In this document: in pieces, positions 52,101-55,100 of the stretch
How the letters are laid out: the number at the start of each line of letters is the position of its first letter
Position numbering within the stretch: position 1 is the first letter of the stretch
Assembly: GCF_003334335.1 (NCBI RefSeq)
Contig: NZ_QOWQ01000007.1
Source of the DNA: Escherichia coli
GTDB taxonomy: Bacteria > Pseudomonadota > Gammaproteobacteria > Enterobacterales > Enterobacteriaceae
Reading direction: 5' to 3' (one strand)
DNA length: 64,000 nucleotides
Program-made: the position numbers

Positions 52101-55100
52101 CCCATTTTCTTCAGCTCTTCGCCGAAGTACCAGGTGAGATGACCCGGCATATAGCCTATCTCTGGCGTTTGTTTGTCTGCGGCGTCTGGGAATGCGCAAA
52201 TGGAATAACCATTCAGTGGGTTATCGCCGTGGCGAAGCGCCAGAAAAGCCGCCGGGCCGTGGCAAAGGGAGATAACAAAACGGTCATTTTTGATTGCCCA
52301 CTGTAAAGCAGCAGCCACGTCCTGGCTTTCTGGTAGACCAATAAGTGCGCCATGACCACCAGGAACAAAGATTGCTGCATATTCGCTATCAGCGTTGAGG
52401 CTGGCGACAACATCCGCGAGTTTCTTCGGATTGCGGAACAACGATTTATGCTGCTCAAAGAATGGCATTACTTTTTCATCTTTGTGCGGCATAGCCCAGT
52501 ATTCAAACTTGGTCATCAGACCGGAAATGGTCGCCACTTCGAATTCGAAACCTGCAGCATGGAGATGATACAACGGCAGCAACGTTTCAATCGGATGGTT
52601 ACCGGTCGAGAACAGTTTTCCGTTATCGGTCGGCAAATAACGTTCGTCCGCGGCGATCACCAGAATTTTATGTTTACCGCGATACGGTTTTGGATAGTCC
52701 ACGCCATCAAGATCAGAGACAGGACTGGTATATTGGCTAAGCGAATATTCTGAAGGGAAGAATGCATTATCTTCAGCAATATCGACCTGCGGATTTTTAC
52801 TTGTTTGAACAGTCATAGTGTATTCCTTATTGTTGCTTAGTTAGGGTAGTCACTATATTTGCGACTGAGCTGGTCGCTATTTTTAACCAGGCTGGAAAAT
52901 TGAGTCAATATATCGAAAGCGGTAGTCGGCGGGTGTAAGTATGTAATGATGATGCTGCACTGGTGTTGAATATTATTCACGCCAAATTTTCCTTATTGAG
53001 CAACGTCGTCGCAAGTGGCCTCAATGATTTTAGACCATTATCAGAGGTACGGGGCGGCGGGGAGAGATTTAGTGATGTGGAATATTGTGGTGCTGATGAA
53101 TATTTATATCCCGGATTGGTAGAGAAAAAGCTTATTTCATGCACTATTTTTGCAAATATTTCTATATGGGAGGCGGTTTTGTTGCAGATTAATTCATAAA
53201 GAAATGCATTTGGGTCTTGGCTGGAAGAGTCGCTGGTAGATGTTATTGTGCCAGCAGGGGCAGGGTAAGGTGCTGTATCGATATGCTTTGGCAATTGCGC
53301 GTGCCGCAGAGGGAGATAAAATGCCAATAAAAAAGCCTGAGTTCGATGAGGGACGAACTCAGGCTAGTGTTAAGTTTTACAGTAACACGCCGCGGCGCGT
53401 TGGCTGATTAGAACTGGTAGACGATACCAAATGCGAGTTGGTCGTCGGTGTTCAGTCCATGAGCGAGAACATAATCACTCTTATCAAGCAGGTTGATCTG
53501 ATAAGCGGTATATACGTTCATGTTCTTATTGAAGTAATACCAGGTACCGATTTCAATGTAGTTCAGACGATCAGAATCTTTGTAACCTGCTACGTCCAGT
53601 GCTTTAGAATAGGAGTAACCGATGGATGGACGCAGACCGAAGTCGAACTGATATTGCAGAACAGCTTCGAAGTTTTGTGTTTTGTTCACAACATCACCGT
53701 CGTCGGAATTCATGTTGTGAGATTCACCGTACATCACAGCAGCATAGACGTTGTTGGCATCATATTTTGTTGACAGTGCCCAAACTTCTGCTTTTTCACC
53801 TTTACTATCACTAGACTGGAAATCAGTACGATCAGAGTTTGCGTAAGCACCAGCAAATGAGAAACCGTCAATAGTGTAAGTTACAGATAAACCATGGCCA
53901 TCGCCATTTGCTTTGTAGTTGCCTGTACCTTCATTTTTACCCTGATATTGCAGAGCAAAATTTAGACCTTCAACCATGCCAAAGAAATCTGTGTTACGAT
54001 AGGTTGCAACACCGTTGGTACGGTTGGTCATGAACAGGTCAGTACCAGCCCATGAATCACCGCCCCACTCAACAAACATATCAGTAAATGCTTCTGCATC
54101 ATACGCGACACCGACATTACGACCATAGTCGAATGAACCAAAATCTTTGTAACTCAAACCAGCATAAGCCAAACGAGTTTGGTCAGGGTTGTCTCTGTTT
54201 GATGCTTCCAGGTCTAGTTCAAACTGACCGTAACCAGTCAATTCAGGGTTGATCTGAGTTTCACCTTTCACGCCTACACGGGCATAAGAGGTATCTTGAG
54301 AATTATCGCCTTTTTCACCATTTTCACGGTCGGTCAGAATGCGCTCACCAACCATCTTGCCGTACAAATCCAGTTTATTGCCATTTTTATTATAAATTTC
54401 AGCCGCATTTGCTGCGCCAGCAACTAATAACGCCGGGACCAGCATTGCCAGAACTTTTCTTTTCATTATGTATTCCCTTGTGATTATAATCTTCATGAAT
54501 ATATCAATAAGTGCCGTTATCCAAAAAAAAGCACATTTGGATACTATTCTATGAAGTTCATTTTATTTTAAGGATTACATGTAACAAATGTATTTAAAAG
54601 ATTTCAAAATGTTTCTAATCTATTTAATATAATTCGGAATTATGAATTCTAAATATAAATATTCATGAAAATTATAAATGTATATCAATATGTTATGAGT
54701 TGAGCGGAAACATAGGGGGTATCAATGATTGTTGCGCCAAACGACTGGTGTGATCAGGCGCACATTAATGAAGGCATAAAAAAAAGCCGGCATCATGCCG
54801 GCCCAAAAAATATAAACAAGACGATAAAAGGCTAATAACGGAAGCATCATGACACAGAATAATAAAAAGGTATAATTGTAATCAGTGCTAATATATTGAT
54901 TAAATGAATTAATAAAGCCGATATCAAAGATAAATAAAATCGCTCAAAACGATTTTTCCTGTATTCACTGCCGTTGCGCAAAATTTATCTATTTGTTCAA
55001 AAAATGATTGAGTCTTGACTGGCTCATCCAATGTGGAAAAATGTGACTTTTATCACATAATAGTACTAAGTCTGAATTTTCCGGGTTATCTCAAAATGGA

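What the first reader, a model, noticed from the sequence alone, without database searches (positions are those of the whole stretch)
53408..54466. Porin gene yedS appears intact
A continuous 352-aa OmpC/OmpF-like ORF with signal peptide and the C-terminal aromatic residue is present, whereas I recall yedS as an interrupted pseudogene in K-12. An extra functional general porin could affect antibiotic and nutrient permeability. The AT-rich 500-bp upstream region (54497-55014) suggests complex or silenced regulation.
Basis: partly seen in the sequence, partly recalled or inferred. Interest (0 to 1): 0.45.

Follow-up and report, generated by a model that had tools for sequence, protein, structure and literature searches.

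The report
Intact yedS porin, a common allele
The window carries an intact outer-membrane pore gene at the site where laboratory E. coli K-12 has only a broken copy, but this version is already annotated in about a fifth of sequenced E. coli and is a very different gene variant from K-12's, not its repaired form.

Summary
Window 53408-54466 (minus strand) is an uninterrupted 352-aa general porin with a signal peptide, conserved pore-lining residues, a C-terminal Phe, a ribosome-binding site and its own terminator. It lies between drpB/rseX and hchA, which is the yedS locus. K-12 MG1655 has a 1193-bp pseudogene there (one in-frame stop and one frameshift).

The finding is not new. The identical protein is annotated "porin" in RefSeq. 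This allele block is present at >=95% identity in 1,166 of 5,426 complete E. coli genomes. A functional YedS in a clinical isolate was linked to carbapenem susceptibility in 2013.

One correction matters. The window gene is not K-12's yedS without the lesions. The flanks are 98-99% identical, but the mature-protein block is only 55.7% identical in DNA and 59% in protein. At least four allele classes, as different as separate porin paralogues, share one promoter, leader and signal peptide.

The "AT-rich upstream region" contains the known sRNA gene rseX, a published high-affinity CRP site and conserved OmpR-like boxes. Published K-12 data show H-NS/StpA silencing of this area. I predict RybB, not MicF, pairs with the start region.

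Interest is low. The deep cassette polymorphism is the only mildly novel aspect.

The parts
53408..54466 (-). Intact porin gene at the yedS locus (352 aa; 'class A', short type)
   Evidence: ORF and sequence. It is 100% identical to the annotated 'porin' WP_069888990.1 in strain 1506. Full-length porin homology. Synteny drpB-porin-hchA.
54404..54466 (-). Signal-peptide coding region (21 aa, ...ANA|AE), identical in all allele classes
   Evidence: Alignment with OmpC, OmpF and OmpN N-termini. Nucleotide identity across classes A, B, C and D.
53423..54397 (-). Variable 'cassette': the mature-porin coding block that differs between allele classes
   Evidence: Sliding identity falls from about 100% to 27-87% only inside this block. 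The exact junctions are ...GCGGCTGAA and GTCTACCAGTTCTAA. Window against K-12: 55.7% here, against 98.9% and 97.6% in the flanks.
54447..54464 (-). Predicted RybB sRNA pairing site (+3 to +20 of the coding region)
   Evidence: RybB nt 1-16 duplex dG -17.2 kcal/mol, z -3.9, 0 of 400 shuffles. The site is conserved in the K. oxytoca, Enterobacter, Citrobacter and E. fergusonii orthologues. This is a prediction only.
54474..54479 (-). Shine-Dalgarno-like AAGGGA, 7 nt before the ATG
   Evidence: Read directly from the sequence.
53334..53365 (-). Intrinsic terminator of the porin gene (12-bp stem, T tail), about 43 nt after the stop codon
   Evidence: Terminator scan. Conserved in all allele classes.
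54467..54778 (-). AT-rich (27.9% GC) leader and promoter region between rseX and the porin start
   Evidence: Composition. It is 97-100% identical among E. coli strains whatever the allele class. It is equally AT-rich (21-26% GC) in four other genera.
54572..54615 (-). Conserved 44-bp block of 10-bp-phased GAAAC/GAAAT/GTTAC motifs (candidate OmpR boxes), at -149..-106 from the ATG
   Evidence: Conserved in position and sequence in Citrobacter, E. fergusonii, Enterobacter and K. oxytoca. It shares the 11-mer ACATTTTGAAA with the ompC promoter region, but only marginally above chance (p about 0.07). The OmpR assignment is an inference.
54560..54587 (-). Weak sigma-70-like promoter candidate (TTGTTA-16-TAAAAT) abutting the boxes
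   Evidence: Consensus scan, 9 of 12 matches. The number of such sites is not above shuffles. Candidate only.
54747..54767 (.). CRP binding site GGTGTGATCAGGCGCACATTA
   Evidence: Exact match in the window to the 'novel CRP site, Kd 4.9 nM, associated gene yedS' in Table 1 of PMC12871828.
54778..54868 (-). rseX small RNA gene, with its terminator at 54784-54804
   Evidence: Rfam RF01401, 97.7 bits against a gathering score of 50. Exact match to the 91-nt K-12 rseX b4603. Terminator scan.

Best explanation
This is an intact gene for a classical trimeric general-diffusion porin of the OmpC/OmpF/PhoE family. It occupies the polymorphic yedS (ompS1) site between drpB-rseX and hchA. It is one of at least four deeply diverged allele classes found in E. 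coli (class A, 352 aa, 'short' type). K-12 carries a broken copy of a different 'long' class. All classes share the same upstream region, leader, signal peptide, last codons and terminator, so only the mature barrel is exchanged, most likely by homologous recombination in those conserved ends. Shown: the gene is intact, it has all sequence hallmarks of a working porin, it is under purifying selection, and it is common. Inferred: like its neighbour rseX it is kept largely silent by H-NS/StpA on the very AT-rich upstream DNA. Transcription probably needs anti-silencing together with OmpR and/or CRP, and the mRNA is probably shut down by the sigma-E-dependent sRNA RybB pairing at codons 2-7. When expressed, especially in strains that have lost OmpC or OmpF, it would add a cation-selective-type pore that admits small hydrophilic solutes, including beta-lactams.
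For: Intact ORF, Shine-Dalgarno sequence, signal peptide and terminator. Full-length homology to solved porins, best with OmpK35. The Pfam Porin_1 family is recorded for its cluster. K16, R42, R82, R132, D113, E117 and the C-terminal Phe are all conserved. The AF2 model has 16 strands at moderate confidence. Locus identity comes from synteny and from the K-12 annotation. The allele block is at >=95% identity in 1,166 of 5,426 genomes, and full length in 1,141. dN/dS is 0.13 against the 97% variant. Other classes: B 743, C 903, D 1,662 genomes. Identity matrix and tree. Exact junctions, and flank against cassette identity. Syntenic orthologues in four genera and in more than 40 species representatives. 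For regulation: rseX, H-NS/StpA silencing of rseX and its surroundings in K-12 (PMC8313858), the CRP site, 'yedS (ompS1)' mRNA down 2.5-fold on sigma-E induction (PMC2731931), ompS as a RybB target in Salmonella (PMC1804206), and the predicted, conserved RybB site. For function: YedS and carbapenems, by citation only, and a 'porin 50% homologous to K-12 YedS' detected by proteomics in a STEC strain (PMC9731836).
Against: There are no expression or transport data for this allele or this strain. The AF2 model is only moderate (pLDDT 65.9). The promoter candidates are no better than chance, and the OmpR-box similarity to ompC is marginal (p about 0.07). The H-NS data are from K-12, whose coding block differs. 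The locus is dispensable: it is broken in K-12, in strain 138 and in O157:H7. My recollection that MicF controls YedS (Warner 2013, not readable here) is not matched by any MicF-seed complementarity.
Confidence: 0.85

Rival explanations
1. The window gene is simply the ancestral, unbroken form of the K-12 yedS pseudogene, so the two differ only by K-12's inactivating mutations.
For: Same locus, and identical promoter region, leader and signal peptide.
Against: The mature-coding block is 55.7% identical in DNA and 59% in protein to the K-12 class. Intact K-12-class genes exist and are 393-397 aa, closer to OmpN (72%) than to the window protein.
Confidence: 0.02
2. The gene is intact but functionally dead: a cryptic, permanently silenced relic drifting towards a pseudogene.
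For: The very AT-rich upstream DNA and published silencing of the neighbourhood. Repeated independent inactivation of the locus in other lineages.
Against: dN/dS of 0.13 within the class and 0.11-0.19 against orthologues. Full-length copies in about 1,141 genomes. Pore residues, the RybB site and the upstream boxes are conserved across genera. Proteomic detection of a non-K-12 YedS-like porin in a STEC strain.
Confidence: 0.1
3. Class A is a recent horizontal import of an OmpK35/OmpF-type porin from another genus that replaced the resident gene.
For: The best solved-structure match is Klebsiella OmpK35, and the L3 motif is VEWGGD as in OmpK35 rather than PEFGGD. The flanks are nearly identical to K-12 while the block is not.
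Against: No relative above 70% identity outside E. coli among species representatives, or above about 69% in the 5.8-billion-protein search apart from E. coli and metagenome clusters. The nearest foreign relatives sit at the same yedJ-adjacent site, not at an ompF site. dS of about 1.1-1.9 points to ancient divergence. Two sublineages (>=99% and about 97%) are already established in E. coli.
Confidence: 0.1

Closest known systems
YedS of clinical E. coli (Warner et al. 2013, Antimicrob Agents Chemother 57:1935; PMC3623324)
   Same: Same locus and same idea: an intact, expressed yedS in a non-K-12 strain acting as a porin relevant to carbapenem entry (title and paraphrases seen).
   Different: The paper could not be read here, so which allele class that isolate carried is unknown. 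Its reported MicF dependence (from my memory) is not supported by seed complementarity in this sequence.
K-12 yedS pseudogene b4496 and its intact relatives (class D, named 'porin OmpC' by PGAP, 'outer membrane protein S1' or 'yedS' by some submitters)
   Same: Same position. Identical upstream region, rseX, leader, signal peptide, last five codons and terminator.
   Different: The mature protein is 59% identical. Class D is 393-397 aa against 352 aa here, has PEFGGD rather than VEWGGD in loop 3, and is sister to OmpN (72%) rather than to the window clade.
Salmonella quiescent porin OmpS1 (and OmpS2): H-NS/StpA-silenced, LeuO- and OmpR-activated
   Same: The literature equates yedS with ompS1 (PMC2731931). 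Both are minor porins silent in the laboratory with an AT-rich control region. ompS is a RybB target (PMC1804206), and a RybB site is predicted here.
   Different: Orthology and synteny with Salmonella were not tested, because no Salmonella genome matched the 20-mer scan. LeuO and OmpR control of E. coli yedS is inferred, not shown.
OmpK35 (Klebsiella pneumoniae OmpF-type porin; PDB 9hn1, 5o77) and E. coli OmpF
   Same: Best structural homologue, aligned end to end at E=2.6e-132. Same VEWGGD loop-3 motif and constriction residues.
   Different: Different locus. Only 56% identity to E. coli OmpF, and below the NCBIfam OmpF equivalog cut-off (413.5 against 583 bits).
Porin gene with an adjacent porin-regulating sRNA gene (ompC-micF, ompN-micC)
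   Same: yedS has rseX immediately upstream, just as ompC has micF and ompN has micC.
   Different: rseX is in tandem rather than divergent. It was detected only in Escherichia, not in Klebsiella, Enterobacter or Citrobacter, and it shows no predicted pairing with yedS itself.

Membership tests
General bacterial porin family (Pfam PF00267 Porin_1; OmpC/OmpF/PhoE type) | Full-length sequence homology to the family | tested here: met
   NCBIfam OmpF, PhoE and OmpC models at E 8.5e-124 to 5e-117 over residues 1-352. 48 PDB porin sequences hit, best OmpK35 at 2.6e-132. PF00267 is recorded for its 90% cluster.
General bacterial porin family (Pfam PF00267 Porin_1; OmpC/OmpF/PhoE type) | Sec signal peptide with an Ala-X-Ala cleavage site, and a C-terminal Phe | tested here: met
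   MKRKVLAMLVPALLVAGAANA|AEIYNK and ...VYQF, aligned with K-12 OmpC, OmpF and OmpN. No signal-peptide predictor was run.
General bacterial porin family (Pfam PF00267 Porin_1; OmpC/OmpF/PhoE type) | Constriction zone: basic cluster K16/R42/R82/R132 facing acidic D113/E117 on loop 3 (OmpF numbering) | tested here: met
   All six residues are conserved. The loop-3 motif is VEWGGD instead of PEFGGD.
General bacterial porin family (Pfam PF00267 Porin_1; OmpC/OmpF/PhoE type) | 16-stranded beta-barrel | tested here: met
   The AF2 model shows 16 strands, but with a mean pLDDT of only 65.9. Ungapped end-to-end alignment with solved 16-strand porins.
General bacterial porin family (Pfam PF00267 Porin_1; OmpC/OmpF/PhoE type) | Trimer formation and non-specific solute conductance | not testable with these tools
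   Needs biochemistry or electrophysiology.
OmpF, PhoE or OmpC proper (NCBIfam NF007446, NF007544, NF007841) | Score at or above the curated cut-off | tested here: not met
   413.5 against 583 (OmpF), 409.4 against 599 (PhoE), 391 against 484 (OmpC). Identity to the K-12 proteins is 54-58%.
yedS (ompS1) locus porin, defined by position | Located between drpB/rseX and hchA, downstream of dcm-yedJ | tested here: met
   Window ORFs, RefSeq annotations of five strains including NC_000913.3, and rseX by Rfam.
yedS of K-12 (b4496), defined by sequence orthology of the mature protein | Close sequence identity to the K-12 gene or its intact class-D relatives | tested here: not met
   59% aa and 55.7% nt in the mature block. 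Class D groups with OmpN, while the window groups with the syntenic short-type porins of other genera.
Quiescent, H-NS-silenced porins (OmpS1, OmpS2, OmpN, OmpK37 type) | Strongly AT-rich control region | tested here: met
   27.9% GC, in the lowest 0.16% of windows. Conserved property in four other genera.
Quiescent, H-NS-silenced porins (OmpS1, OmpS2, OmpN, OmpK37 type) | Silencing by H-NS/StpA and relief by LeuO and/or OmpR | not testable with these tools
   The literature shows H-NS/StpA repression of rseX 'and surrounding areas' in K-12 and LeuO/H-NS control of Salmonella ompS1. Neither was tested for this allele. The candidate OmpR boxes are conserved but statistically marginal.
RybB regulon (sigma-E-dependent omp mRNA decay) | Complementarity of the mRNA to the RybB 5' seed (nt 1-16) | tested here: met
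   dG -17.2, z -3.9, 0 of 400 shuffles. The positive controls MicF-ompF and MicC-ompC were recovered. The site is conserved in four genera. In-vivo regulation was not tested.
MicF regulon | Complementarity to the MicF 5' seed (nt 1-33) near the start codon | tested here: not met
   dG -7.7 to -10.4, no better than shuffles, over -312..+120. The ompF control gave -27.1, z -5.1 to -5.5.

The most novel reading that the evidence does not exclude
The yedJ/drpB-adjacent site is a long-lived 'porin cassette' locus. Within E. coli, at least four classes as divergent as separate paralogues (68% and 59% aa identity, dS about 1.1) are kept behind one invariant promoter, leader and signal peptide and in front of one invariant terminator. 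They are swapped by recombination in those ends. The same short-versus-long dimorphism recurs in Citrobacter, Enterobacter and Klebsiella. Such persistence would imply balancing or frequency-dependent selection on the exposed loops (phages, colicins, antibodies). It would also mean this 'silent' porin is expressed and matters in nature. I found no paper in the searchable library that describes this.
Probability: 0.3. Interest if true: 0.5.

Novelty: already known. Interest (0 to 1): 0.2.

Why it matters
As flagged, the finding matters little. An intact yedS is the common state in E. coli, it is already annotated, and it has a published link to carbapenem susceptibility.

- "yedS" is not one gene. 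It is a set of very different porins at one site, so K-12-based primers, probes, antibodies and functional inferences (including the 2013 result) need not transfer between strains.
- RefSeq's pipeline names the K-12-type allele "ompC". This creates a second, sometimes "frameshifted", ompC feature that can mislead annotation-based screens for porin loss in resistant isolates.
- The invariant start region carries a conserved predicted RybB site. That gives a testable route by which envelope stress would shut off this porin whatever cassette is present.

Tried and rejected
1. Tandem-paralogue, differential-loss origin of the allele classes. This was prompted by two adjacent porin genes in E. fergusonii. 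I rejected it because the second gene is only 63-64% identical to class D and has a different signal peptide. In addition, none of more than 40 species loci shows a tandem pair next to yedJ.
2. MicF control. The seed test was negative over -312..+120.
3. RseX, MicA and MicC pairing with yedS. None was above chance.
4. Whole-length sRNA duplex energies were uninformative, because even the ompF control was marginal, so I replaced them with seed-only tests.
5. Reading Warner et al. 2013 failed: one attempt found the service busy and the paper is not held. Its content is cited only through other papers and my memory.
6. Salmonella ompS1 synteny. The class-D protein search was saturated by Escherichia and Shigella, and the 20-mer genome scan returned no Salmonella. 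This remains untested.
7. OmpR boxes. The 11-mer shared with the ompC promoter is only marginally unusual (p about 0.07), so I kept it as a candidate.
8. Sigma-70 promoter scan. The number of sites was no higher than in shuffles.
9. The AF2 model was only moderate. I used it just as a coarse strand and loop map.
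Full report
**1. The observation**

On the minus strand there is a single open frame from 54496 to 53408. From the ATG at 54466 it encodes 352 aa. The protein starts MKRKVLAMLVPALLVAGAANA|AEIYNK and ends GIVYQF. There is no internal stop or frameshift.

An AAGGGA Shine-Dalgarno-like element lies seven bases before this ATG. The ATG at 54496 has none. PGAP uses the 54466 start for the 100%-identical gene of E. coli strain 1506 (WP_069888990.1, "porin"). A 12-bp-stem intrinsic terminator follows about 43 nt after the stop codon (53365-53334).

**2. What the protein is**

It matches general porins end to end:

| NCBIfam model | Score (bits) | Curated cut-off (bits) |
|---|---|---|
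| OmpF | 413.5 | 583 |
| PhoE | 409.4 | 599 |
| OmpC | 391 | 484 |

All three scores are below their cut-offs. The best solved structure is Klebsiella OmpK35 (E=2.6e-132, residues 1-352).

In an alignment with K-12 OmpF, OmpC, PhoE and OmpN, the constriction residues K16, R42, R82, R132, D113 and E117 (OmpF numbering) and the terminal Phe are all conserved. Loop 3 reads VEWGGD, as in OmpK35, instead of PEFGGD. An AlphaFold model built on a shallow 28-sequence alignment has 16 strands but only moderate confidence (pLDDT 65.9).

So it is a bona fide member of the general porin family, but it is not OmpF, OmpC, PhoE or OmpN (54-58% identity).

**3. The locus and K-12**

The neighbours are hchA (51965-52816, minus), drpB/yedR, yedJ and dcm. 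RefSeq annotations of five strains give the same order: dcm-yedJ-drpB-[porin]-hchA-hprS.

NC_000913.3 annotates rseX (b4603) and the pseudogene yedS (b4496, 1193 bp) at this position. PGAP describes the K-12 copy as "frameshifted; internal stop". My translation shows a TAG after about residue 161 and a frame change near residue 225.

**4. Not the same gene minus the lesions**

A sliding comparison of the drpB-hchA interval shows 95-100% identity between strains everywhere except the mature-porin coding block, where it drops to 27-87%. At nucleotide level:
- All classes are identical from far upstream through codon 23 (...GCGGCTGAA).
- They are identical again from GTCTACCAGTTCTAA onward.

| Comparison | Upstream flank | Downstream flank | Cassette |
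|---|---|---|---|
| Window vs K-12 | 98.9% (4.1 kb) | 97.6% (2.9 kb) | 55.7% |
| GABEEC132 vs R4 (near-identical flanks, different classes) | 98.4% | 97.4% | 64.8% |

Protein identities:

| Pair | Identity |
|---|---|
| Window class A vs class B (357 aa) and class C (371 aa) | 68% |
| B vs C | 90% |
| A vs intact K-12-class D (393-397 aa) | 59% |
| D vs OmpN | 72% |

Synonymous divergence between classes is saturated: dS is 1.1-1.2, compared with 1.3-1.9 to other genera.

Differences are strongest in the predicted extracellular loops, which are 37-43% identical and hold essentially all the indels. Periplasmic turns are 68-87% identical, loop 3 is 64-82% and the strands are 59-73%.

**5. How common it is**

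I used only the divergent block as the query against 5,426 complete E. coli genomes:

| Class | Genomes | Criterion |
|---|---|---|
| A (window type) | 1,166 (638 at >=99%, 528 at 95-99%); 1,141 near full length | >=95% identity |
| B | 743 | >=95% identity |
| C (includes ST131) | 903 | >=95% identity |
| D (heterogeneous, 84-100%) | 1,662 | >=80% coverage |

- Class D is intact in strains PD4 and SLDY13, frameshifted in strain 138 and split by IS1203 in an O157:H7 strain.
- The window protein's 90% cluster has 2,356 member sequences.
- Within class A, dN/dS is 0.13, which indicates purifying selection.
- An intact yedS is thus the ordinary state, and the window allele is a frequent, already annotated one.

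**6. Beyond E. coli**

The nearest non-E. coli proteins are about 69% identical and come from the K. oxytoca group, Enterobacter and Citrobacter; the E. fergusonii protein is 66% identical. All lie at the same dcm-yedJ-(drpB)-porin position.

I scanned species-representative genomes for the conserved start ATGAAAAGAAAAGTNCTGGC. It gave 106 hits, of which 81 were complete porin ORFs. In more than 40 species with yedJ on the fetched DNA, a single porin lies 285-1215 bp from yedJ. That porin is one of:
- **Short type** (351-359 aa, 63-70% to A and 70-78% to B): K. oxytoca, K. michiganensis, K. spallanzanii, K. indica, Raoultella, Leclercia and C. braakii.
- **Long type** (379-397 aa, 62-95% to D): E. 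albertii, E. whittamii, C. werkmanii, C. youngae, E. cloacae, E. hormaechei subsp. hoffmannii, Lelliottia and K. pneumoniae, among others.
- **A third type**: C. amalonaticus S646, whose 366-aa porin is 72% identical to the second E. fergusonii porin.

Both main types occur within Escherichia, Citrobacter and Enterobacter. Apart from one E. coli record, class A has no relative above 70% among the species representatives.

A tandem-paralogue origin was tested and rejected.

**7. The upstream region**

- **rseX.** Rfam finds rseX at 54779-54868 (97.7 bits). The 91-nt K-12 sequence is present exactly at 54778-54868, with its terminator at 54804-54784.
- **Composition.** The 312-bp spacer to the ATG is 27.9% GC. 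It is similarly AT-rich in four other genera.
- **H-NS.** PMC8313858 reports that RseX and its surrounding areas are de-repressed in hns and hns stpA mutants of K-12.
- **CRP.** The 21-mer GGTGTGATCAGGCGCACATTA at 54747-54767 is listed as a new high-affinity CRP site (Kd 4.9 nM) assigned to yedS in PMC12871828.
- **OmpR-like boxes.** A 44-bp block of 10-bp-phased GAAAC/GTTAC motifs at -149..-106 is conserved across genera. It shares an 11-mer with the ompC promoter region, but that sharing is statistically marginal. I treat it as a candidate OmpR site.
- **Distribution of rseX.** It accompanies the porin in E. fergusonii but was not detected in Klebsiella, Enterobacter or Citrobacter.

**8. 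Post-transcriptional control**

I tested the 5' seeds of five porin-targeting sRNAs against -40..+40 of five porin mRNAs.
- The controls were recovered: MicF-ompF at -27.1 kcal/mol (z -5.5) and MicC-ompC at -22.5 (z -4.2).
- RybB nt 1-16 pairs with yedS +3..+20 at -17.2 (z -3.9, 0 of 400 shuffles).
- MicF, MicA, MicC and RseX are at chance.
- MicF shows nothing anywhere from the rseX terminator to +120.
- The RybB site lies in the invariant part of the gene and is conserved in four other genera.

This fits two published results. "yedS (ompS1)" mRNA falls 2.5-fold on sigma-E induction in K-12 (PMC2731931). ompS is one of five RybB targets followed in Salmonella (PMC1804206). The pairing itself remains a prediction.

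**9. What is known already**

Warner et al. 2013 (title seen) is paraphrased by others as showing that an active yedS porin gene and marR inactivation shape carbapenem resistance. I could not read the paper. My memory of its abstract is that a normally non-translated yedS was functional in the isolate and MicF-dependent.

[quoted passage not shown] The yedS-yedR intergenic region has been used as a host-source marker (PMC11267920). None of the 35 papers that mention yedS in the searchable library describes the multi-class cassette structure.

**10. Verdict**

The useful additions are:
- The window gene is a different, common allele class rather than a repaired K-12 gene.
- The "AT-rich region" is the rseX/CRP/H-NS-silenced control region.
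- RybB rather than MicF is the predicted sRNA partner.
- The locus shows a deep, trans-generic cassette polymorphism whose cause is unexplained.

Interest is 0.2.

Noticed in passing
L001 4031-5223 (K-12), L005, L006, L007; hit tables: NCBI's PGAP gives the K-12-type (class D) yedS gene the symbol and product 'ompC: porin OmpC'. Many RefSeq E. coli genomes therefore carry two 'ompC' features, and K-12 appears to have a 'frameshifted ompC'. This is a trap for annotation-based porin-loss screens.
   Followed up: partly
window 54370-54385 (codons 31-34); L022, L001: Mosaic 5' junction. In the window allele, AATAAACTGGATTTGTAC equals the K-12 class D sequence. The 97% class-A variant of strain GABEEC132 has the B/C-like AATAAAGTTGA instead, which gives the L32V and D33E differences. 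This suggests recombination breakpoints vary within the first 35 codons.
   Followed up: partly
L023 (NZ_CP043852.1) versus NZ_CP033020.1: Two RefSeq records both labelled E. coli ATCC 8739 carry different yedS classes. One has class A with internal stops in both drpB and the porin. The other has class B at 100% identity. This is probably a mislabelled or error-rich assembly.
   Followed up: no
L020 6663-7772 and 8231-9688 (E. fergusonii): E. fergusonii has a second, unrelated porin gene (369 aa, different signal peptide, 62-65% to OmpF, OmpC, PhoE and OmpN) and a TrkH-family gene inserted between the yedS-site porin and hchA.
   Followed up: partly
L008 (O157:H7 strain Vac_07.1): In this O157:H7 genome the yedS-site porin is split by an IS1203 (IS3-family) insertion, and drpB is frameshifted.
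   Followed up: no
L092, L093, L083 (genome scan): MAG contigs labelled Collinsella sp. carry enterobacterial porins: L092 is 99% identical to E. coli class C, and L093 is 64-67% identical to class D, OmpN and OmpC. A genome labelled Chryseobacterium sp. 18061 (L083) carries an OmpN-like porin (78%). These are likely contamination or mislabelling in public assemblies.
   Followed up: no
window 55015-55398 (+): The longest drpB (yedR) ORF starts at a TTG and gives 127 aa, whereas the annotations give 93-100 aa. PMC7648144 reports that translation starts mainly at the ATG annotated as codon 22.
   Followed up: no
L013 3122-3232 and L011 2085-2177; window 54778-54868: Three 'minor or major' porin genes each have a porin-targeting sRNA gene next door: ompN-micC, ompC-micF and yedS-rseX. 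Also, ompN orthologues in other genera share the same RybB-complementary start sequence as yedS.
   Followed up: partly
window 571-694 (-), 3433-3507 (+), 63271-63357 (+); tRNAs at 25409, 27817, 29641, 44027, 45094: Other RNA features in the window are the his operon leader, STnc240, DsrA, four identical tRNA-Asn genes and one tRNA-Ser(cga). This is consistent with the K-12-like his-asnV/U/W/T-serU-dsrA region read in reverse orientation.
   Followed up: no
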